A stretch of 64,000 nucleotides of DNA, from the NCBI GenBank assembly GCA_013336275.1, contig JAAXUA010000003.1, positions 2,698-66,697 of the forward strand, given 5' to 3'. A program made the translations under genes and the position numbers. The notes beneath the pieces are model-generated. The model was not told the origin of the DNA, did not search any database, and saw only the letters and a program-made list of their open reading frames with translations. Of this stretch, positions 43,498 to 50,772 are shown piece after piece. The stretch comes from Candidatus Falkowbacteria bacterium (GTDB lineage: Bacteria; Patescibacteriota; Patescibacteriia; Patescibacteriales; GWE2-39-37). How positions within the stretch are numbered: the first letter of the stretch is position 1; every line of letters starts with the position of its first letter.

Positions 43498-43571
43498 GTG
43501 CCCATAGCTCAACCGGATAGAGCGTCTGGCTTCGGACCAGAAGGTTGTGGGTTCAAGTCCTGCTGGGCACA
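43498..43571 (+). tRNA. tRNA-Arg (anticodon TCG)
   Basis: Acceptor GTGCCCA/TGGGCAC and anticodon stem TCTGG/CCAGA with loop CTTCGGA. The T-stem has two G-U pairs. Confidence 0.75.
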
Positions 43572-43622
43572 CTTTGAGCAGGATATCCTGCCGCCTGTCT
43601 GCAGGCAAGGGTGCGCTGGCGA

Positions 43623-43696
43623 GGCTGGGTAGCTCAGTTGGTTAGAGCGCGGCACTCATAACGCCGAGGTCGAGAGTTCGAGCCTCTCTCCAGCCA
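43623..43696 (+). tRNA. tRNA with CAU anticodon (elongator Met or lysidine-modified Ile2)
   Basis: Acceptor GGCTGGG/TCCAGCC, loop CTCATAA, T-arm GAGAG-TTCGAGC-CTCTC. It lacks initiator features. Confidence 0.8.
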
Positions 43697-43707
43697 CTTT
43701 ACAATAT

Positions 43708-43780
43708 GCGCTGTTAGCTCAGCTGGTAGAGCAGTTGCCTCTTAAGCAAACGGTCGCAGGTTCGAATCCTGCACGGCGCA
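43708..43780 (+). tRNA. tRNA-Lys (anticodon CTT)
   Basis: Acceptor GCGCTGT/ACGGCGC, loop CTCTTAA, T-arm GCAGG-TTCGAAT-CCTGC. Confidence 0.85.
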
Positions 43781-43894
43781 CAAATTTAAGGCCACCCAAC
43801 AAGGGTGGTTTTAAATTTGTTTGCATACGTGCAGGATGAGAAGTTTATGCTCCGGAGCGACAGCGTAGGGGTAAATCCTGCACGGCGCACAAAT
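43765..43894 (+). repeat. 21-bp direct repeat of the tRNA-Lys 3' end (att-like)
   Basis: AATCCTGCACGGCGCACAAAT occurs at 43765-43785 (T-loop to 5 nt past the tRNA end) and again at 43874-43894. Confidence 0.85.
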
Positions 43895-43937: not shown

Positions 43938-46900
43938 CTATTTTTCCAGATCGACTAACAACTGTCTTATAACCGAGAAGTGCTTGATACAAATCTTACT
44001 GCCGACAGTTAGATTTTGGCACTCTGCTGGCAATGGCTGCCCCTTCTCGTCTTTGTTCCAAAATGCCGGCCAGTCAGTGACCCTATACTTCAAGTTAGTC
44101 GGGTCAGAGGCAAATGACTTATACATCTCCATAATCGCTTCTCGCAACTCCAGGACATGGGTAGCCCTGATTCTAGTATTAGGAGTCATGGGATTGAGGC
44201 CTTGGCCGACGATTTGCGTGTCGGTATCACCGCTGGCATTTGAGTTGTGGAAGGAAAAATAACCGACGCTTGAACCCATGTTTGCACGACAAACATTGAT
44301 GCGCTGTCTTATCTCGTTGACCATGGACGCACTAAGAGCCTGGCCGGGGGTGGAGGTCGGATTGGCAAAACTGATATTCAGGCAAGCGGCACGCCAGATA
44401 ACCGTATCATTCTTGTACATCCAGATAGTGGTACCCTTAGGACGGACCCTGATGAATCTTTGGTACTTACCATCAACGCTAGTCAAGCCGGTCAGGTGTA
44501 TGGAGCAGTTGCCGCTTGTGCAGACCGCCTCAGCTGGACTCGAGTCGACCCAACCGCTGGTTGGCGCCGGACTGTCGCTTTGCTGGATTTCATATAATGT
44601 CGGCCCAGACTTCGTATAGTTATATTCAATTGTCAGGTAAGCCTCCCACTCATTGAAGTTACCGTCAGAATCGCCATAGTCGACTTTCAGGGTTACCATC
44701 GAAGGAAAGTCTTTGAGACCGGTGATTTTATTTGACTCAACGTAAGTTGTTGAAGCGATGGTCAGGGGCGATGTTCCGGAGTTGTTCCAATCTACCCAAT
44801 TATCAACCCAGTCGATGGTCTGATATTTTGGCGGAGGGGCAACGGTAAGATACTGGTTGACCACATTAGCCCTCAAATAAGTATCAGCTCCGCCCGATCT
44901 GTCGATAAAATAATAATCCAAGCTGTTTGGGTATTCTAATTCCCCATTGTTGTCTCCCAGCGATAAATTGCTCGGAGTGATATATTTATCATCAGCAATC
45001 AGGATACCTGTTGGTTGCCAATTACTCTGGTCATGGCTCATTTGGATCTGGTTCCAGTGGACTCTTGGTATCGGATTTGTCCAGCCATCATCGTCGGTGT
45101 ATAACCAATGATCCCAACGGCGATCGGTGACCTGATAACCATTGGGCAAAGTATCATATGAATTAATCATACGGTAAAGCGGGGGCAATGACGCTTGGTA
45201 AGTGTAATCCATTTTTAGCTTAACTAAGTTACTGCCGATGTCATCGCTCAAGACATCAACCGCATCTGGCGGGTTTATCTCCCCCGACAATGACGGCAGT
45301 GTCGTAACTTGGCCCATGGGGTAAATTTCATCGACAAGCATGGAATAGGGAGTATATCCTTCGCCATAAACGCTTAATGCCACATCATATGTTTCATTTG
45401 GCGCCAAATTTTCGGTTGGGATACTGTAGCATTCACGACTCTTAGTGCACTTGCCAGAGGCATACAACGAAGAGTCCTCATAGCGATGATCCCAGGATGT
45501 AGCAAACCAGCCACCCCACTCCCAGGTTGAATCTGCTGGTTTTTTATACCTTACATCAAAATATAATACTGGGTAATTAATGCTATACGAAGCTTCCGAC
45601 TTATAGCGGTTAATCCAAGCGATTAGGTCTGGCGCAAAGCGGACATGCAAGTCGAAGCAGCCGGAACCGAAACAGGCACGCGGCACGATAATCGGTTCGG
45701 TCGGCATGCCGGCTACCCTATATTTTAAAGCTTCAATTGGGGAGGATGTCGCCCAGTTGCTATTGATCGCTGGGGTGGCGGCATAAACCCGAACCCGATA
45801 AGCATAAGTCGATGAGGGGGTCAGGTTGCTGTATGACTGGACATAGCATGTGTTGGGGGTCGCGCATCCGGGGGGCGAGGTCGTTGCGCCGCTCGTGCTT
45901 GTGTAGGTATTTTCAAGGGTCCAAGCCCCTCCATTAACTTGTCTTTCGATACGATATCCGTATAACCCGTCCCATCCGCCGGTGTATTTGAAGGCTACAT
46001 TTACCTTGCTCTTGGTATATGTCGATGTTGCCGTCAATATTGGAGTTGTCGGATCCGGTGTCGGCACCAGCGCCGGGGCCATGATCGGAGTCGAGGTTAC
46101 CCAGGCCGGGTCAGAACTACAAAAATTACCGTTACTCGTGCAAAGCCTGACTAAATAACGATAAGTACTGGAAGGAATTATGGGGTTTGTTGAGGTATTG
46201 GCATGGCCCACCTGATAACATCTGTTAGCAATATTGCAAGTAGCGCCATTAAACGGCGGGCTAGTACTTTCAACCTCGCTATTATTGAGTGACGTGTTCT
46301 GGGTGCTTGTTCCATTATAGGCCCAGCCGGAATTGGCCCAATTCCAGCCGCTGCCGTTCCAGGTTCCACGTTGCTCCACTATTTCATAGCGATTAAAGCC
46401 GTTCCAATTGTTCGGCTGATTGAAGTTGATCTTCACCTGTGAAATCGAGTGATTGGACGAGGTACTGAAGACTATCGGACTTGCAATATTAGGGATAGAG
46501 CCGGAGCCTGCCTTAATATAGCCATCCCACTGATTATTAAGCTTGCCTATCGGTATTACGCGGAAATACCAGTCAAAACCAGGGTCCAGTCCATAAACAT
46601 AGAGGTGGCAAGCCAGAGGCGTGGTACACTGGACATCGTCCTGTCTGACCGTGCTCCAGCCCGGGTCTGATGCGTCTTGGACGGTGTTCCACTGGACGTA
46701 AAACGCTGTCGGCCCGGAGTTGGCAAAGTCAAAAAGGAAACTGACATCGTAATTAGTGACATCATAGCGGTTGACCTGGACGTTGTTGGCGTCAGGCAAG
46801 GGATTCATATTTATCTGATTGCTCTGAGTGTACGCACTGTCTTGGCCGACCACATATTTGTTTACGGATTTTGCCTGGAAAAAATAGGAGTGATTCGGAT

Positions 46901-48908
46901 CGACATAAAAATAAGTCAGAGGCGTCGAAGTCGGAGAAATTTCGGCCGGTTGATCGCCGATTGTCTGGTTGGCATTGCTTATATACGTGCCGCTAGCCGC
47001 CTGGACGTAGCTTGCACCCGACATAAACGGGCTCCAGATCGGCGTCGAGGTTGTACGATACTGTATCTGATCGATACTGGAAAAACGGTTAATCTCATAG
47101 CCGGTCAAGGTGCTATAACCGGGAATGGTCTTAACCAACGCCAAGAATGTCGGGTCATAAACATAATCCAAGGCCAAGGCGATAAGATTAGAGCCAAGCA
47201 CCTGCGGCCTCACCGCCAATGGCGCATTCAGGGTAATCGGCAGTAAAGCAGCTGCAGTCACTTGAGCAGATTCTATCCACTCGCTGTAAGCGTTGTTGTA
47301 AGGCGATGAACCGAGATAGGCCAAACGGACGCGGAAGACGTAGTTATTGCCTGGGGTTATCCTGTAATTAATACTTGAAGCATTGGCACTGAAAGTTGTC
47401 GGGATAAAACAGCGATAATTGCCTGTGCAGTTGCCAGCCCCGAAGAAAGTATCTCCCGCTGCGTTGCCTGTTGTCGAGGCAATGACAGGTATCTCAGTTC
47501 TCGGAGTGCCGTTCTCCACCACCTGAAGCTGGTAGTGGGTTACTGGCAGGCTCGTGAGCGCTACGTCGCTACGAAAATGGACCCTGATCGTACTATCAGC
47601 AGGCGTAGACGTCGGCGCTTCAGTGCCGATGGCCGTGGCTTTCGGGACGGCAAGATAATTTGCGGCCATCAACGCCGATGAAGTGGCCCAGGCGTCAGCG
47701 CAGCGGGACTGTCCGTCATCCACAACACAGGGTCGGACAAGATATTGATAGGTGACTCCTGGTACGACCAGGTCGTCAATGCTATAGCACTGGTAAAGGC
47801 TAGGACAAGAGAAGAACGGAGAAGAAAAAGTGTCGTATTCATCGATGCCGAAAGACTGGACTCCCAAAGACACGCCATCCACGATTTTTTCGCCTTCATA
47901 ATAATCGAAGCCGGGATTGCCATCATTGGAATACGAATCTAACGGTGCGGGAGCATGGAAATAAAGCCTCATCGAAGAAGAGGCATGGGTCGACGTTGCG
48001 ACCATATTGAAGGCATCGAAGGTGGGTATATCAACCAAGCTTGCGGAAGTGCTAGACGCCTTGCCACCGTCCTGAGGAGCGATTACCGGGTCTGATGGCG
48101 ATGCCCGATAAGCTAGCCTGATCCGATATTGATAAACGACATTCGGCTCGACAGCACTAGGATCATCCAAGGAAAAACACACTCGTCCTGACTGGCACTC
48201 ACCGTCAGGAAACATTATTTGATTAGGGTGGCCCAACGTCACCCGGTTGTCATCGTAGGTATAAAAAGTTGCGCCCTCAACCCAGGTCGGCTCGCCTAAT
48301 ATTTTTCTGTCTATAATATAACCGTTAACGCCCGTCCAAGCATCTAAAAACTTGAAACTGACATTATTATAAGCATGGACCATATTCGCCGACGAGGCGA
48401 TGTATATATTATCGTCATCGACTGTCGGCTTAGTTGATTGGGGCGGAAAACCCGATCCAGGAACGATCGCATTTTCCAGGGTCGGAGCCGTAGTAGTTAC
48501 GCCGCTATCATTGACCACCCAAGCGGTATACCTATATTTCCTGATCGGATCAAGCTTGACCGGCAAAGTGCTGGTGCCGAACTCATGCGGAATATTCGAA
48601 TCGATAGAATCGACCCAGCTGCCGAAACCTCCGTTATCCAATGCCACGGGCGTCGAAGACGCATCGTCGATCACTTGCAGATACATCCTGACTTGATTGC
48701 CCGCGCCAGGCTCATTCGCATAAACAGAGAAGTTTACCGTAACCGTGCCGTCGCCGTTGGACACGAAATAATCCCCCTCCATCGGGCTCAGCCACTCTGG
48801 CGCATCATACAATGCCAAACCGGACTTGATATTAAAAAATATCAAGAAACCAGCGGCAATCAATAAGGCTGTTGCCAAATACGATAGGGGTGCTTTTGGC
48901 CTTCGCAT
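43938..48908 (-). CDS. giant membrane-anchored surface protein (about 1656 aa) built of Cys-bridged FN3/Ig-like modules
   Basis: The start is set at MRRPKAP (ATG 48908, 7 nt after the upstream stop). TM anchor LSYLATALLIAAGFLIFF. Eight repeats of the motif C-x5-7-C-[YFH]...Y-x-[YF]-x-[VI]-R. Confidence 0.8.
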   Translation of the reverse strand: MRRPKAPLSYLATALLIAAGFLIFFNIKSGLALYDAPEWLSPMEGDYFVSNGDGTVTVNFSVYANEPGAGNQVRMYLQVIDDASSTPVALDNGGFGSWVDSIDSNIPHEFGTSTLPVKLDPIRKYRYTAWVVNDSGVTTTAPTLENAIVPGSGFPPQSTKPTVDDDNIYIASSANMVHAYNNVSFKFLDAWTGVNGYIIDRKILGEPTWVEGATFYTYDDNRVTLGHPNQIMFPDGECQSGRVCFSLDDPSAVEPNVVYQYRIRLAYRASPSDPVIAPQDGGKASSTSASLVDIPTFDAFNMVATSTHASSSMRLYFHAPAPLDSYSNDGNPGFDYYEGEKIVDGVSLGVQSFGIDEYDTFSSPFFSCPSLYQCYSIDDLVVPGVTYQYLVRPCVVDDGQSRCADAWATSSALMAANYLAVPKATAIGTEAPTSTPADSTIRVHFRSDVALTSLPVTHYQLQVVENGTPRTEIPVIASTTGNAAGDTFFGAGNCTGNYRCFIPTTFSANASSINYRITPGNNYVFRVRLAYLGSSPYNNAYSEWIESAQVTAAALLPITLNAPLAVRPQVLGSNLIALALDYVYDPTFLALVKTIPGYSTLTGYEINRFSSIDQIQYRTTSTPIWSPFMSGASYVQAASGTYISNANQTIGDQPAEISPTSTPLTYFYVDPNHSYFFQAKSVNKYVVGQDSAYTQSNQINMNPLPDANNVQVNRYDVTNYDVSFLFDFANSGPTAFYVQWNTVQDASDPGWSTVRQDDVQCTTPLACHLYVYGLDPGFDWYFRVIPIGKLNNQWDGYIKAGSGSIPNIASPIVFSTSSNHSISQVKINFNQPNNWNGFNRYEIVEQRGTWNGSGWNWANSGWAYNGTSTQNTSLNNSEVESTSPPFNGATCNIANRCYQVGHANTSTNPIIPSSTYRYLVRLCTSNGNFCSSDPAWVTSTPIMAPALVPTPDPTTPILTATSTYTKSKVNVAFKYTGGWDGLYGYRIERQVNGGAWTLENTYTSTSGATTSPPGCATPNTCYVQSYSNLTPSSTYAYRVRVYAATPAINSNWATSSPIEALKYRVAGMPTEPIIVPRACFGSGCFDLHVRFAPDLIAWINRYKSEASYSINYPVLYFDVRYKKPADSTWEWGGWFATSWDHRYEDSSLYASGKCTKSRECYSIPTENLAPNETYDVALSVYGEGYTPYSMLVDEIYPMGQVTTLPSLSGEINPPDAVDVLSDDIGSNLVKLKMDYTYQASLPPLYRMINSYDTLPNGYQVTDRRWDHWLYTDDDGWTNPIPRVHWNQIQMSHDQSNWQPTGILIADDKYITPSNLSLGDNNGELEYPNSLDYYFIDRSGGADTYLRANVVNQYLTVAPPPKYQTIDWVDNWVDWNNSGTSPLTIASTTYVESNKITGLKDFPSMVTLKVDYGDSDGNFNEWEAYLTIEYNYTKSGPTLYEIQQSDSPAPTSGWVDSSPAEAVCTSGNCSIHLTGLTSVDGKYQRFIRVRPKGTTIWMYKNDTVIWRAACLNISFANPTSTPGQALSASMVNEIRQRINVCRANMGSSVGYFSFHNSNASGDTDTQIVGQGLNPMTPNTRIRATHVLELREAIMEMYKSFASDPTNLKYRVTDWPAFWNKDEKGQPLPAECQNLTVGSKICIKHFSVIRQLLVDLEK

Positions 48909-48915
48909 ATCCGAA

Positions 48916-49503
48916 TTATTTCGAAAAATCCTTAATACACTTGAGACTGAATGGGCGATCCTTAATCCTGCCGCAATACGTCTTAGCGTTTGCTGGATCG
49001 TTTTTAGCCTTATAATAGTAAATTTCCGAGGTGCAAGAAATGGCCGATTGCGCACTAGACAGCTGGAAGCAATAATTTTCATCGACGTTTTCTATCGCCA
49101 GCCGGCGCAGGATGCCGTCAATGCAAATCTGCTGTTTTCGCATATCGTCTATGAGGGTGCAGACCCTGACATCCTTGTCTGACATCGCCCTATTCATATA
49201 ATAAGCCAAGCTGCCGCCTGTACAAATCTGCTGCTCTTCCTTGGTGAGTTCGCTCTTTTCGCAGGTAGTTTTCTCATCGGCCCTGACCTTGTCTGCCTCT
49301 TCTTTGCTCAAAGTCGTTATTTCATACTTGGTCGTAGTAGCCTGTTCTGATGCAACCGGCTTAGAACCCGCCTTGTTTTCAGGAAGTTTGACCTGTTTGA
49401 TGGCAAGATCCTTAGACAGGAGGACAAAAATAATAGCAACGCAAATAATCAAGCCTAACGCCAATGCGGCAATAATAAGCTTGGTGGAGTTTTTTTCTTC
49501 CAT
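48916..49503 (-). CDS. membrane-anchored Cys-repeat protein
   Basis: N-terminal TM helix LIIAALALGLIICVAIIFVLL, then paired-Cys units (VCTLIDDMRKQQIC, YCFQLSSAQSAISC, YCGRIKDRPFSLKC). Confidence 0.6.
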   Translation of the reverse strand: MEEKNSTKLIIAALALGLIICVAIIFVLLSKDLAIKQVKLPENKAGSKPVASEQATTTKYEITTLSKEEADKVRADEKTTCEKSELTKEEQQICTGGSLAYYMNRAMSDKDVRVCTLIDDMRKQQICIDGILRRLAIENVDENYCFQLSSAQSAISCTSEIYYYKAKNDPANAKTYCGRIKDRPFSLKCIKDFSK

Positions 49504-49521
49504 ATTGATTTGTTATTTATA

Positions 49522-50001
49522 TTATGGACCGTAGGTTAAGCCATTTGAGCAGCCGACTCCTGTTGGCGAGGTGCTGGAAGCGATAAGAATCTCGTCCGGA
49601 TTGCAATTTATCAGCTTGGTGCCGTTGGAGTAGATGATTCCGCTCTCATCAACGGCAAAGACCTGGCTATTGCTGCCATTATTCACTTGAAAAGTCGCGT
49701 TATCCGGGTTAACCGCCTGGTCGCTATCGATCCTCACCTGCGCACCCTTTGACGTATCGACATAAAAATGATTTTGGGCGGTATCAGAATATAGTCTGTC
49801 CAAACCAAGACCGCCAGCGACTCCGGGCTTATACTGGGCGTTTACGCTGGTGTTAACTGGAGCTTCGACATTATTGCCTGGCGGATTGGCCGTTGGCGCA
49901 TCCCAGGCGGCCAAAATAGATTGCCAAGATAAAAACAAGCTTAGCGAGAGCACTACGCCCATAACTAAGCCCAAAGGAAATAACATTTTTTTTGAGTCCA
50001 T
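49522..50001 (-). CDS. small secreted/anchored protein with AWDAPTANPPGNNVEAPVN motif
   Basis: N-terminal hydrophobic segment LFPLGLVMGVVLSLSLFL. First gene of the three-gene minus-strand unit. Confidence 0.6.
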   Translation of the reverse strand: MDSKKMLFPLGLVMGVVLSLSLFLSWQSILAAWDAPTANPPGNNVEAPVNTSVNAQYKPGVAGGLGLDRLYSDTAQNHFYVDTSKGAQVRIDSDQAVNPDNATFQVNNGSNSQVFAVDESGIIYSNGTKLINCNPDEILIASSTSPTGVGCSNGLTYGP

Positions 50002-50004
50002 ACT

Positions 50005-50065
50005 ATTTGTTTGGCAAACTTATTAACTTTGTTTATTATAACATTTTTCACTGTGCCAAACAAAT
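50005..50065. promoter_or_regulatory. 12-bp perfect inverted repeat bracketing the operon promoter
   Basis: ATTTGTTTGGCA (50005-50016) and TGCCAAACAAAT (50054-50065). The minus-strand promoter TTGTTT-17-TGTTATAAT lies between and overlaps the distal arm. Confidence 0.55.
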
Positions 50066-50073
50066 AACCGCCC

Positions 50074-50772
50074 CTATTTTTTTCTCAGAACCGCGTAGTA
50101 ATTCTTTTTATCAGAAATAAATTCCTCTATTTCCGCATTTTCGATAATCATAGCCTTCCTGAAGCCCCGTTCGGTATATGCGTGATAATAGCGTGGACAT
50201 TTTTGGTTAAAACCGTTGAAAACGACATCACCGAAATCTAATCCATTCAGACCCAGCAGCTTCAATAGGAAATTTTTTACAACAAGTTTCCTAAACAATG
50301 GTGCCTGCCACATTGACCAAGCCGAAATGACAACTCTGCCGCCTGGCTTGACCTGCTCAAGCAATAACCTTAACGCTTGGCGTCGCATATCCTTTCCGGG
50401 CAGATGGTGTATTACCGCTATGCAGAACACTTCATCGAACAGCCCCAGGTCAAGTCGATTCAAATCAATAATATCACCAGAAAGCAGCTTCTGCCCTGGG
50501 AGCTGCCAGGAAGCATTATTTTTGGCTAAAAAAAGCAAATTATTACTTGGCTCGATGCCTACATATTCTACATTTCTACCCAGCCAAGCCTGGCGCAAGC
50601 GCCCGTTACCGCAACCGACATCCAGAACTTTGGCGCCAGTAGGGGTTTTTGATGCGATAGCTGCTAATGTCGGCCAAAGCTTCCGTTGGCGCGTCTGATC
50701 AAAGTCATCAGCGATATTTTCATAATTCTGTCTTACCAGGTCTAGTAATTCAGACTCTTTCTGCTTGTTCAT
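50074..50772 (-). CDS. class I SAM-dependent methyltransferase
   Basis: VLDVGCGNGRL motif I. 4-nt overlap with recQ. Confidence 0.75.
   Translation of the reverse strand: MNKQKESELLDLVRQNYENIADDFDQTRQRKLWPTLAAIASKTPTGAKVLDVGCGNGRLRQAWLGRNVEYVGIEPSNNLLFLAKNNASWQLPGQKLLSGDIIDLNRLDLGLFDEVFCIAVIHHLPGKDMRRQALRLLLEQVKPGGRVVISAWSMWQAPLFRKLVVKNFLLKLLGLNGLDFGDVVFNGFNQKCPRYYHAYTERGFRKAMIIENAEIEEFISDKKNYYAVLRKK

What the first reader, a model, noticed from the sequence alone, without database searches (positions are those of the whole stretch)
43938..50065. Three-gene surface operon with a ~1656-aa protein organised as an internal (A-A-A-B)x2 super-repeat
Three co-oriented minus-strand genes are separated by only 7 and 18 nt, and each starts with a hydrophobic anchor or signal.

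The last gene is a giant protein. The motif C-x5-7-C-[YFH] followed 15-25 aa later by Y-x-[YF]-x-[VI]-R recurs eight times. In ORF-track numbering the first Cys falls at about 296, 426, 552, 819, 949, 1073, 1212 and 1521. Examples are CQSGRVCF..YQYRIRLAY, CPSLYQCY..YQYLVRPCV, CTGNYRCF..YVFRVRLAY, CNIANRCY..YRYLVRLCT and CATPNTCY..YAYRVRVYA.

The offsets 296->949, 426->1073, 552->1212 and 819->1521 are all about 650-700 aa. Non-Cys landmarks repeat at the same offset: SNLIALALDYVYD at 631 versus SNLVKLKMDYTYQ at 1284, and ANSGPTAFYVQW at 787 versus TKSGPTLYEIQQ at 1490. So a unit of about 650 aa, made of three short modules plus one long module, has been duplicated. The two copies are at approximately nt 46503-48395 and 44403-46445.

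The C-terminal ~150 aa (43938-44400) is non-repetitive. It carries three helix-like I-R/K-x-x-[HI]-x-x-[EV]-[LI]-R motifs (NEIRQRIN, IRATHVLELREAI, IKHFSVIRQLL).

Giant modular surface proteins are plausible host- or partner-attachment organelles in small-genome episymbionts. I do not recognise this particular module or the two accessory proteins.
Basis: partly seen in the sequence, partly recalled or inferred. Interest (0 to 1): 0.65.

Follow-up and report, generated by a model that had tools for sequence, protein, structure and literature searches.

The report
Candidate-phylum bacterium's fibronectin-domain surface fibre
A Falkowbacteria (candidate phyla radiation, CPR) genome encodes a conserved three-gene cassette whose 1656-residue product is probably an exported chain of about eleven fibronectin-III-like domains, ending in an unnamed three-repeat domain that also caps phage tail proteins and many secreted enzymes of soil bacteria.

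Summary
Three minus-strand genes lie 18 and 7 nt apart: g1 49522-50001, g2 48916-49503, g3 43938-48908. The g3 protein has an internal super-repeat (Smith-Waterman z=23, colinear over about 570 columns).

The anatomy needs correcting.
- The short modules are divergent fibronectin type III (FN3) domains carrying a C-x5-C loop.
- Each unit therefore has five domains.
- The first two FN3s are in swapped order between the units (a-b-c-X-Y, then b-a-c-X-Y).

Cysteines are gained and lost in pairs across orthologues and their counts are always even. This argues for disulfides and an extracellular location.

The cassette recurs in three diverged lineages, one of them with a single-unit 673-aa g3. The A, X and Y modules, g1 and g2 were found nowhere else.

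The C-terminal 154 aa are not "non-repetitive". They are a diverged member (hhalign 98.6%, E 6e-16) of a widespread three-repeat domain, FTD..IKAVHIxELRxAI. No Pfam or NCBIfam model hit it, and no solved structure matched by sequence. The domain also ends secreted proteases and beta-helix, FG-GAP and NHL proteins, as well as phage tail-module proteins.

Best reading: an exported fibrillar, adhesin-like fibre. An attachment function is plausible but untested.

The parts
49522..50001 (-). g1: 159-aa protein. It has an N-terminal hydrophobic segment, then ILA|AWDAPTANPPGNNVEAPVN..QYKPG, then a beta-rich C-terminal part ending with a conserved Cys pair (C133, C151).
   Evidence: ORF. No Pfam, NCBIfam or PHROG hit. 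Eight homologues, all Falkowbacteria-like. The N-terminal 70 aa are homologous to two small proteins flanking the single-unit g3 in L009 (hhalign 96.9% and 95.8%).
48916..49503 (-). g2: 195-aa protein. It has one N-terminal transmembrane helix with no AXA-type cleavage site, a polar linker, then four C-x11-12-C repeats (8 invariant Cys).
   Evidence: No family hit. Full-length homologue next to the single-unit g3 in L009 (hhalign 98.9%, E 4e-17). Found only beside CPR g3 genes among all fetched loci.
43938..48908 (-). g3: 1656-aa protein (NCBI HGA34_03080, hypothetical). Architecture: export signal, N-terminal domain, [a-b-c-X-Y], [b-a-c-X-Y], C-terminal domain.
   Evidence: dN is 0.18-0.23 against close orthologues with synonymous sites saturated, which indicates purifying selection.
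48813..48908 (-). g3 residues 1-32: positively charged N-terminus, an 18-residue hydrophobic core, then GLA|LYDAPEW. This is either a Sec signal peptide or a signal anchor; which one is unresolved.
   Evidence: Sequence. A small residue sits at -1/-3 in three diverged lineages (GLA, GHA, ALA). In P0015 the only unpaired Cys lies in this segment.
48432..48812 (-). g3 residues 33-159: N-terminal beta-sandwich domain with an FN3-like LDPIRKYRYTAWVVNDSG motif. It is the most conserved part of the protein (dN 0.07-0.10).
   Evidence: Beta strands in model m07333188ba99. dN. The weak matches of the P0015 counterpart are to FN3/Ig models (PF25059 E 0.0026, PF25788 E 0.07).
47223..48431 (-). Unit 1, three A-type FN3-like modules: A1 residues 160-293, A2 294-420, A3 421-562. 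Each has a C-x5-C loop between strands C' and E. A2 has a second Cys pair (C394/C403).
   Evidence: Iterative HMM E 6e-31, 3e-34 and 6e-31. Top PDB matches of the module profile are almost all FN3. Foldseek returns tandem FN3 arrays.
46782..47222 (-). Unit 1, X domain (residues 563-709): GSNLIALALDYVYD..GYEINR..W..YFYVDPNHSYFFQAKSVNKY. Fold unresolved.
   Evidence: AX-BX hhalign score 101, E 2e-16. No PDB hit. Not significantly similar to A modules. pLDDT below 50.
46497..46781 (-). Unit 1, Y domain (residues 710-804): FN3-like, with C761-x5-C767.
   Evidence: AY-BY hhalign E 3e-9. The homologous module of P0015 reaches Pfam fn3 at 25.4 bits against a cut-off of 25.
45267..46496 (-). Unit 2, three A-type FN3-like modules: B1 residues 805-948 (b-type, second Cys pair C923/C930), B2 949-1075 (a-type), B3 1076-1214.
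   Evidence: HMM E 5e-34, 2e-36 and 2e-19. A2-B1 scores 93 and A1-B2 scores 85. Foldseek returns tandem FN3 arrays with E down to 1.6e-10.
44712..45266 (-). Unit 2, X domain (residues 1215-1399), with insertions relative to AX.
44403..44711 (-). Unit 2, Y domain (residues 1400-1502): FN3-like, with C1463-x4-C1468. Highly conserved (dN 0.08-0.15).
43941..44402 (-). C-terminal domain (residues 1503-1656). It has three helix repeats: SASMVNEIRQRINV, RIRATHVLELREAI and KICIKHFSVIRQLLV. A conserved pair C1509/C1540 is present. It is a diverged member of a widespread, unnamed three-repeat C-terminal domain.
   Evidence: hhalign against 33 canonical metagenome domains: 98.6%, E 6.4e-16, 110 columns, all three repeats in register. 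No Pfam, NCBIfam or PDB sequence match. Three helices in a low-confidence model.
50035..50059 (-). Possible promoter upstream of g1: TTGGCA, a 13-nt spacer, then an extended -10 (TGtTATAAT). It lies between the methyltransferase stop codon and g1.
   Evidence: Read directly from the sequence. This is a consensus match only, and the consensus scan found no more sites than in shuffles.
43792..43808 (-). Terminator-like hairpin (CCACCC..GGGTGG plus a T-rich tail), about 130 nt downstream of the g3 stop codon.
   Evidence: This is a consensus match only.

Best explanation
The locus is a conserved, chromosomal three-gene cassette found in a narrow group of CPR bacteria. It encodes an exported fibrillar surface protein and two small partner proteins.

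**g3.** After Sec export, g3 forms an extended chain of about eleven beta-sandwich domains: an N-terminal domain followed by two five-domain units. Most of these are divergent FN3 domains stiffened by a disulfide across a C-x5-C loop. At the usual 3.5-4 nm per domain, the fibre would be about 40 nm long (inferred, not measured). Its C-terminal three-repeat helical domain is the functional end. That domain belongs to a family that also terminates phage tail-module proteins and many secreted enzymes. It most likely binds a cell-envelope ligand, such as a wall glycopolymer or surface protein. For an episymbiont, that ligand would sit on the partner cell.

**g2.** This is a single-pass membrane protein with four disulfide-bonded helical hairpins outside the cell.

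**g1.** This is a small exported protein with a signal-proximal AW-x-x-P-x-x-x-P-P motif shared by its homologues in the related loci.

Both small proteins probably act at the base of the fibre, as anchor, docking or assembly partners.

**Shown:** the anatomy, the homologies, the paired cysteines, the conservation of the cassette, and purifying selection.

**Inferred:** export, fibre geometry, polarity, binding function, and the roles of g1 and g2.
For: **FN3 nature of the modules.**
- Top PDB sequence matches of the module profile are almost all FN3 (FN3con E 0.002, titin, NCAM2, contactin).
- The homologue P0015 reaches Pfam fn3 at its cut-off, and P0016 matches the FN3-like PhoD_N and Pur_ac_phosph_N just under theirs.
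- Foldseek on both half-models returns tandem FN3 arrays with E down to 1.6e-10.

**Extracytoplasmic location.**
- Cysteine counts are 26, 28, 26, 28, 26 and 30 in six orthologues.
- Cysteines are gained and lost in pairs: 1015/1021, 1079/1084 and 1630/1640 are lost together in L005, and lineage-specific gains come in twos.
- All three products have N-terminal hydrophobic segments.

**A functional gene.** dN is 0.18-0.23 with synonymous sites saturated. The two ends (N-terminal domain, and Y plus the C-terminal domain; dN 0.07-0.15) are two to four times more constrained than the middle (0.22-0.33).

**Cassette conservation.**
- The same g1-g2-g3 order occurs in four close relatives, in L005 (g3 32% identical) and in L009 with a single-unit g3.
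- g1 and g2 homologues occur only beside g3.

**C-terminal domain family.**
- hhalign 98.6%, E 6e-16 over all three repeats.
- It lies at the extreme C-terminus of M36 and S8 proteases and of beta-helix, FG-GAP/DUF11, NHL, CHRD and GSDH proteins.
- In viral contigs it ends 460-924-aa proteins.
- In L133 the gene order is tape measure, tail, baseplate, tail fibre, the domain-bearing protein, holin, endolysin. In L012 the domain-bearing protein sits just before holin and endolysin.
- A phage tail protein has no use for a secretion tag, so a binding or structural role is the common denominator (inference).

**Literature.** Fibrillar adhesins are defined as stalk plus adhesive domain plus anchor (PMC8286594). 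Patescibacterial proteins of more than 1500 aa with FN3 domains are already proposed as host-interaction candidates (PMC13059738).
Against: - No binding, localisation or expression data exist.
- Both AlphaFold2 models are of low confidence (mean pLDDT 52 and 53, six-sequence alignments). The X domains and the C-terminal domain are below pLDDT 50, so the fold of the C-terminal domain is unknown.
- No known adhesive domain or known anchor was detected.
- Polarity is unresolved. A conserved small-residue site (GLA|, GHA|, ALA|) suggests the N-terminal segment may be cleaved, which would remove the only obvious anchor.
- The two ends are the most conserved parts. Rapidly evolving host-recognition tips usually behave differently.
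- Co-transcription is inferred from 7- and 18-nt spacing only.
- The viral and metagenome members of the C-terminal domain family were collected with a motif pattern taken from this family, so the census is biased towards canonical members.
Confidence: 0.5

Rival explanations
1. The same exported FN3 fibre, but with reversed polarity. The C-terminal three-repeat domain is a non-covalent anchor to the producer's own cell wall, functionally like the three-motif SLH domain or CWB2 repeats. The conserved N-terminal domain, freed by signal-peptide cleavage, is then the distal working end.
For: - The C-terminal domain sits at the extreme C-terminus of very different exoenzymes (M36, S8, beta-helix, GSDH). 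This is the distribution expected of a retention module.
- P0018 is the domain alone behind an RR-containing N-terminal signal.
- AXA-like sites follow the hydrophobic segment in three lineages, and the lone odd Cys of P0015 lies inside it.
- Nearly half of fibrillar-adhesin-like proteins have no recognised anchor (PMC8286594).
Against: - No sequence similarity to SLH or other wall-binding families (Pfam scans at E up to 10).
- In phage tail-module proteins the C-terminus is normally the distal, receptor-binding end, though a wall-binding domain would fit there too.
- Nothing ties the domain to a particular wall polymer.
Confidence: 0.28
2. A non-adhesive envelope scaffold, such as a spacer, an S-layer-associated strut or a periplasm-like ruler, whose job is structural rather than attachment.
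For: - Both ends are strongly conserved and the middle is merely tolerated.
- The fixed domain number (two units) is kept between lineages only 32% identical.
- The cassette lies among housekeeping genes with conserved synteny.
Against: - Twenty-six cysteines are atypical for S-layer proteins (general knowledge).
- A single-unit version exists (P0015, 673 aa), so length is not fixed across the family.
- The C-terminal domain is shared with phage tail proteins and soluble exoenzymes.
Confidence: 0.15
3. A domesticated or resident phage tail-fibre gene, with its chaperones, sitting in the chromosome.
For: FN3 arrays ending in the same C-terminal domain occur in phage tail modules.
Against: - There are no phage genes around it. 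The flanks are FolD, RecQ and a methyltransferase on one side, and tRNAs, HU, RNase Y and ClpP on the other. Synteny is conserved across species.
- GC content is like that of the neighbourhood.
- All three products have export signals, which virion proteins lack.
- A, X, Y, g1 and g2 are absent from all viral loci fetched.
- tblastn of the window's and the canonical C-terminal domain against isolate phages gave nothing.
Confidence: 0.03

Closest known systems
Bacterial fibrillar adhesins (a stalk of tandem Ig/FN3-type domains plus a terminal functional domain; Monzon et al. 2021, PMC8286594)
   Same: A long exported single polypeptide. It has a tandem beta-sandwich stalk, a distinct terminal domain, and more variable middle repeats.
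   Different: - No recognised adhesive domain and no recognised anchor (LPXTG, SLH, etc.).
- The hydrophobic segment is N-terminal and the special domain is C-terminal, the reverse of the Gram-positive norm.
- Stalk domains are so diverged that Pfam fn3 does not hit the window protein.
- Two dedicated small partner genes accompany it.
Large FN3-containing surface proteins of Patescibacteria proposed as host-interaction candidates (PMC13059738)
   Same: CPR origin, more than 1500 aa, signal or transmembrane segment, FN3-type domains.
   Different: Those carry Pfam-recognisable domains in a different lineage (Absconditicoccaceae). No sequence relationship was found: the exhaustive profile search returned only 6 proteins.
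Titin A-band FN3/Ig super-repeats
   Same: A higher-order repeat of several non-identical FN3-type domains, duplicated en bloc. Titin FN3s are among the best sequence and fold matches.
   Different: Titin is eukaryotic and intracellular, has no disulfides and has many more copies. The resemblance is analogy of architecture only.
SLH domain (three S-layer-homology motifs forming a pseudo-threefold wall-binding module on S-layer proteins and exoenzymes)
   Same: Three tandem helix-containing repeats. It sits at a terminus of unrelated secreted enzymes and surface proteins.
   Different: Repeats here are about 37 aa (up to 58 in g3) rather than about 55. There is no TRAE motif, no Pfam SLH match, and the ligand is unknown. 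This is functional analogy only, recalled from general knowledge.
Phage tail-fibre and receptor-binding proteins with FN3 arrays
   Same: The same FN3-array-plus-three-repeat-C-terminal-domain layout appears in viral contigs L012, L133, L135, L140, L141 and L145. In L012 and L133 the gene lies between tail genes and the lysis cassette.
   Different: The window gene has an export signal, chromosomal housekeeping context, different FN3 subtypes (A, X and Y are absent from viral loci) and partner genes g1 and g2.

Membership tests
Fibronectin type III domain (Pfam PF00041, E-set clan) | The sequence matches the family HMM at or above the gathering score. | tested here: inconclusive
   The window protein gives no fn3 hit even at E<=1. 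The homologous Y module of P0015 scores 25.4 bits against a cut-off of 25. The A-module profile's top PDB matches are almost all FN3, the best at E 0.002.
Fibronectin type III domain (Pfam PF00041, E-set clan) | A seven-strand beta-sandwich fold of about 90-130 residues. | tested here: met
   Foldseek of both AF2 half-models returns tandem FN3 arrays (fibronectin 7-B-8-9 at E 1.6e-10, titin FnIII tandems, cytokine receptors). Caveat: mean pLDDT is only 52-53. The A modules score about 60-85, while X and the C-terminal domain are below 50.
Fibronectin type III domain (Pfam PF00041, E-set clan) | Signature residues: Trp in strand B, aromatic residues in strand C, and L-x-P-x-x-x-Y-x-[YF]-x-V in strands E-F. 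| tested here: met
   Module alignment A6 shows F/W..GY.I.R..W and P-x3-Y-x-Y-R-V-R. P82 and Y86 are nearly invariant.
Fibrillar adhesin (sensu PMC8286594) | A long exported protein with tandem stalk domains. | tested here: met
   N-terminal signal or anchor, about 11 beta-sandwich modules, paired cysteines.
Fibrillar adhesin (sensu PMC8286594) | A recognised adhesive domain at the end distal from the anchor. | tested here: not met
   No known adhesive domain in Pfam or NCBIfam. The terminal domain belongs to an uncharacterised family.
Fibrillar adhesin (sensu PMC8286594) | A known cell-surface anchor (LPXTG, SLH, LysM, etc.). | tested here: not met
   No anchor domain was hit. The C-terminus is ...LLVDLEK, with no sortase motif. 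Only an N-terminal hydrophobic segment is present, and it may be cleaved.
Fibrillar adhesin (sensu PMC8286594) | Demonstrated adhesion. | not testable with these tools
   This needs binding assays or genetics in an uncultured organism.
Unnamed three-repeat C-terminal domain (FTD..[IV][KR]AxH[IV]xELRxA[IV], three times) | Three repeats in register with the canonical, roughly 107-aa domain, at the extreme C-terminus. | tested here: met
   hhalign of the CPR domain profile against 33 canonical sequences: 98.6%, E 6.4e-16, template columns 4-115 of 116. The domain ends at the stop codon. Divergences: repeat 1 lacks the His, and the spacers are longer (52-58 aa against about 37).
SLH domain (PF00395) | An HMM match, and the TRAE motif in repeats of about 55 aa. 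| tested here: not met
   No SLH hit in Pfam scans at E<=10 of either the CPR or the canonical C-terminal domains. No TRAE motif in the alignments.
C-terminal secretion or sorting tags (T9SS CTD/Por_Secre_tail, PEP-CTERM and similar) | An HMM match, or a C-terminal transmembrane helix with a basic tail. Occurrence should be restricted to secreted proteins of cells that have the cognate sorting system. | tested here: not met
   No such Pfam or NCBIfam hits. There is no terminal hydrophobic helix. The domain also occurs on phage tail-module proteins.
Phage tail fibre or prophage element | Location within a phage structural module. | tested here: not met
   Flanked by the methyltransferase, RecQ and FolD genes on one side, and tRNAs, HU, RNase Y and ClpP on the other. 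Synteny is conserved. No PHROG structural hit for g1-g3.

The most novel reading that the evidence does not exclude
The C-terminal three-repeat helix domain (FTD..IKAVHIxELRxAI, three times) is a new, widespread cell-envelope-binding module. Three groups would use it: phages as the receptor-binding tip of tail proteins, soil bacteria to hold exoenzymes on a surface, and this CPR lineage as the business end of a dedicated three-gene attachment fibre (g1-g2-g3). That fibre would tether the episymbiont to its partner. If so, the ligand of one domain family would explain host recognition in three very different systems, and would give a handle for predicting CPR partners.
Probability: 0.25. Interest if true: 0.7.

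Novelty: new variant of a known kind. Interest (0 to 1): 0.45.

Why it matters
How CPR episymbionts recognise and hold on to partner cells is largely unknown beyond type IV pili. This locus offers a concrete candidate that is conserved and under purifying selection. It is an exported FN3 fibre with two dedicated partner proteins, and it is restricted to a narrow Falkowbacteria-related group.

The by-product has the wider reach. The fibre's terminal domain belongs to a large family that no Pfam or NCBIfam model hit and that matched no solved structure by sequence. That family caps phage tail-module proteins and many secreted enzymes of uncultured soil bacteria. Defining its fold and ligand would:
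- annotate many unannotated C-termini;
- possibly reveal a new surface-retention or receptor-binding principle;
- fill part of the "no known anchor" gap noted for fibrillar adhesins (PMC8286594).

The super-repeat with swapped module order is also a tidy case of how long stalks grow from a single-unit ancestor of the P0015 type.

Tried and rejected
- **blastp self-comparison of g3** found only the identity hit. Smith-Waterman with shuffles and HMM/hhalign were needed.
- **Pfam, NCBIfam and PHROGs** on g1, g2 and g3 gave nothing significant. PADLOC was not run.
- **PDB sequence searches** with half-protein profiles, the X domain, and the CPR and canonical C-terminal domains gave only chance-level hits.
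- **The word-indexed homologue search** found only 4 relatives of g3, 7 of g1, and none for the L005 g3.
- **The GTDB scan** found just two species representatives.
- **The exhaustive HMMER search** of 1.84 billion representatives, using the unit-2-plus-C-terminal-domain profile, found 6 proteins.
- **AlphaFold2** on both halves gave low confidence with six-row alignments. I therefore used the models only for module-level fold class, not for the X domain or the C-terminal domain. The third fold-search slot was left unused because no confident model of the C-terminal domain existed.
I replaced it with degenerate DNA patterns.
- **tblastn** of the domain-only protein P0018 and of the window's and a canonical C-terminal domain against isolate phages, and of the canonical domain against plasmids, gave no matches.
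- **Literature search** for the motif strings found nothing relevant.
- **The X domain as a diverged FN3** is not significant (hhalign 8.6%) and is left open.
- **Rejected readings:** prophage origin (context), S-layer protein (cysteine-rich), a secretion-tag role for the C-terminal domain (it is present on phage tail proteins), and an artefact or pseudogene (purifying selection; intact in seven lineages).


Full report
**Observation**

The region holds three co-directional minus-strand ORFs: g1 49522-50001 (159 aa), g2 48916-49503 (195 aa) and a 1714-aa ORF at 43938-49082. Starting g3 at M59 (nt 48908) gives the 1656-aa protein that NCBI annotates as hypothetical protein HGA34_03080 of a Candidatus Falkowbacteria bacterium.

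The C-x5-C-[YFH] motif is at ORF residues 296, 426, 552, 819, 949, 1073 and 1212. The eighth site (1521) is C-x4-C-S, and a further C-x4-C-F lies at 1137. Five of the eight sites carry the strict downstream Y-x-[YF]-x-[VI]-R; the other three carry variants. All quoted landmark peptides are at the stated positions.

The super-repeat is real. Local alignment of ORF 230-860 against 880-1560 scores 212, against 48 +/- 7 for 200 shuffles (z=23). The alignment is colinear over 566 columns at 26.5% identity. blastp self-comparison did not see it.

**Anatomy of g3**

An iterative HMM seeded with one module finds six A-type modules at protein residues 160-287, 294-425, 421-562, 805-954, 949-1070 and 1091-1214.
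- an X domain (563-709 and 1215-1399; AX-BX hhalign E 2e-16);
- a Y domain (710-804 and 1400-1502; E 3e-9).

With the N-terminal domain (33-159), this makes about eleven beta-rich modules plus a C-terminal domain (1503-1656).

The A modules are divergent FN3 domains:
- The window protein itself misses Pfam fn3.
- A 21-sequence module profile retrieves almost only FN3 chains from the PDB (FN3con E 0.002, titin, NCAM2, contactin).
- The Y module of the homologue P0015 reaches fn3 at its gathering score, and the P0016 modules match the FN3-like PhoD_N and Pur_ac_phosph_N just under theirs.
- Foldseek of both AlphaFold2 half-models returns tandem FN3 arrays with E down to 1.6e-10.

The models are of low confidence overall (mean pLDDT 52-53). 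I use them for module fold class only. The folds of X and of the C-terminal domain are unresolved. The C-x5-C pair sits in an insertion between strands C' and E (alignment).

**The super-repeat is not a clean tandem copy**

Profile-profile scores pair A2 with B1 (93) and A1 with B2 (85), well above the colinear pairs A1-B1 (59) and A2-B2 (49). A3-B3 is weak (36) (the single-sequence z-scores agree). A2 and B1 share a second Cys pair just after strand F. A1 and B2 share the FK[FY]..W.G..GY.I.R signature.

The order is therefore a-b-c-X-Y followed by b-a-c-X-Y. Outgroup modules (P0015, P0016) are a-type. P0015 is a 673-aa single-unit version: signal, N-terminal domain, a, X, Y, C-terminal domain. 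The simplest history is growth from a single-unit ancestor by duplication plus at least one further module rearrangement. This predates the split from L005, whose g3 is only 32% identical yet has the same architecture.

**Evidence for an extracytoplasmic, functional protein**

Across six orthologues the cysteine counts are 26, 28, 26, 28, 26 and 30.
- In L005, pairs are lost together (1015/1021, 1079/1084, 1630/1640).
- Lineage-specific cysteines appear in twos.
- Shifted cysteines keep their partner.

This is what disulfides predict.

Against close orthologues, dN is 0.18-0.23 with synonymous sites saturated, so the gene is under purifying selection. The N-terminal domain (dN 0.07-0.10) and Y plus the C-terminal domain (0.08-0.15) are two to four times more constrained than the middle modules (0.22-0.33).

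The N-terminal segment has a charged start, an 18-residue hydrophobic core, then GLA|LYDAPEW. It has a small-residue -3/-1 site in three diverged lineages (GLA, GHA, ALA). In P0015 the only unpaired cysteine lies inside this segment. Cleavage is therefore plausible but not established.

**The partner genes**

g2 has an uncleaved-looking transmembrane helix, a polar linker and four C-x11-12-C repeats with eight invariant cysteines. g1 has a hydrophobic segment followed by ILA|AW-x-x-P-T-A-N-P-P...P-[IV]-N...QYKPG and a small beta-rich C-terminal part. Neither matches any Pfam, NCBIfam or PHROG family.

The order g1-g2-g3 is kept in all four close relatives, which share the same housekeeping flanks. 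It is also kept in L005 (g1 55%, g2 27%, g3 32% identical) and in L009, where the g3 is the single-unit P0015:
- g2-like: hhalign 98.9%, full length;
- g1-like: 96.9% over the N-terminal 70 aa;
- a second g1-like gene follows g3.

Among all loci fetched, g1 and g2 homologues occur only next to CPR g3 genes.

A single transcription unit is inferred from spacing. It is consistent with a possible extended -10 promoter upstream of g1 and a hairpin downstream of g3. It has not been shown.

**How rare the family is**

- The word-indexed search found four g3 relatives.
- The GTDB species scan found two.
- An exhaustive HMMER search of 1.84 billion cluster representatives, using the unit-2-plus-C-terminal-domain profile, found six proteins.
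- The A, X and Y profiles hit nothing outside the CPR loci among about 140 fetched loci.

**The C-terminal domain is the unexpected part**

These are the three repeats of a domain.

P0018, a hit, is that domain alone behind an RR-containing N-terminal signal. Its repeats read ..IRAVHISELRAAI....IRAIHIAEMRTAI.. and ..IRAVHINDLRSAV...

In 115 distinct ORFs, the last motif lies 14-21 residues from the stop codon in about two thirds of the ORFs that reach their stop codon. Typically there are three repeats spaced about 37 aa apart.

hhalign of the CPR domain profile against 33 canonical domains gives 98.6% probability, E 6.4e-16, over 110 columns, with all three repeats in register end to end. Only repeat 2 of the window matches the search pattern, so repeats 1 and 3 are independent evidence.

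The canonical domain is appended to unrelated secreted proteins:
- M36 fungalysin with Calx-beta;
- S8 subtilases;
- a right-handed beta-helix protein;
- FG-GAP with DUF11 and an FN3-like module directly before the C-terminal domain (that module read by eye, not a Pfam hit);
- NHL with InlB-B-repeats;
- CHRD;
- GSDH.

No Pfam-A or NCBIfam model hit the domain, and no PDB chain matched it by sequence.

In IMG/VR contigs, proteins of 460-924 aa end in the same domain (E 1e-15 to 1e-28 against the canonical profile); several have visible FN3-type repeats. In L133 the order is tape measure, tail, baseplate wedge, baseplate, tail fibre, the domain-bearing protein, holin, endolysin. In L012 the domain-bearing FN3 protein directly precedes holin and endolysin.

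A domain shared by virion tail proteins and exoenzymes cannot be a secretion tag. A binding role, or at least a structural one, is the common denominator (inference).

**Mechanism**

I think g3 is most likely exported and forms a disulfide-stiffened FN3 fibre about 40 nm long. Its conserved C-terminal domain binds a cell-envelope ligand. g2 (membrane-anchored) and g1 act at the base. Overall confidence is about 0.5.

The main rival keeps the fibre but reverses polarity. In that reading the C-terminal domain is a wall anchor, analogous to SLH, and the N-terminal domain is the tip (0.28). A purely structural envelope role (0.15) and a phage origin (0.03) are less likely. The phage reading is contradicted by the housekeeping context and conserved synteny, by the export signals, and by the absence of the A, X, Y, g1 and g2 modules from viral loci.

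**Comparison with the known**

In kind, this is a fibrillar-adhesin-like protein (PMC8286594). It resembles the large FN3-bearing surface proteins already proposed as host-interaction candidates in Patescibacteria (PMC13059738). It fails two membership criteria for fibrillar adhesins: it has no recognised adhesive domain and no recognised anchor. Its FN3 modules are at or below Pfam's detection limit.

I therefore rate it a new variant of a known kind. Interest in the CPR protein itself is moderate. The unnamed C-terminal domain family is the more widely useful lead.

Noticed in passing
window 43941-44402 (-); loci L012-L146: The C-terminal domain of g3 belongs to a large three-repeat domain family (FTD..IKAVHIxELRxAI, three times; about 107 aa). 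The family sits at the extreme C-terminus of many unrelated secreted proteins in (mostly soil) metagenomes and of phage tail-module proteins. No Pfam-A or NCBIfam model hit it, and no PDB chain matched by sequence.
   Followed up: partly
window 45684-48431 (-): The first two FN3 modules are in swapped order between the two super-repeat units: A1 pairs with B2, and A2 with B1. B1 and B2 are also unusually similar to each other (hhalign 72), which hints at later conversion or duplication.
   Followed up: yes
window 43498-43781 (+): Three tRNA genes fill most of the roughly 590-nt gap between HU and the end of g3: Arg-TCG, Met-CAT and Lys-CTT. A terminator-like hairpin at 43792-43808 lies between them and g3.
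   Followed up: yes
L009 7553-8002 and 8022-8810: In the single-unit locus, a second g1-like gene (149 aa, same N-terminal AW..P..NPP module) and a 262-aa signal-bearing protein follow the g3-like gene. The cassette may be larger or more variable in other lineages.
   Followed up: partly
L001 / L007 (GCA_964443495.1, CAYUCS010000003.1): The record is titled "uncultured Gammaproteobacteria bacterium". However, the contig is syntenic with the Falkowbacteria window over at least 17 kb, with g3 74% identical. The label looks like a mis-assignment of the MAG.
   Followed up: no
window 50074-50772 (-) and L009 3348-4049: A class I SAM methyltransferase gene lies directly upstream of the cassette in the window, in L001, L002 and L006, and also in the distant L009 locus. 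It may belong functionally to the cassette, or this may just be conserved synteny.
   Followed up: no
L011 402-989 (P0018): A 195-aa protein consists only of an RR-containing N-terminal signal, a Cys/Tyr/Ser/Asn-rich linker and the three-repeat domain. The domain is therefore an autonomous exported unit.
   Followed up: partly
window 48916-49503 (-): The ectodomain of g2 is four C-x11-12-C units with a periodicity of about 30 residues (C81/94, C115/127, C145/157, C177/189). It matches no family, and its fold was not predicted.
   Followed up: no
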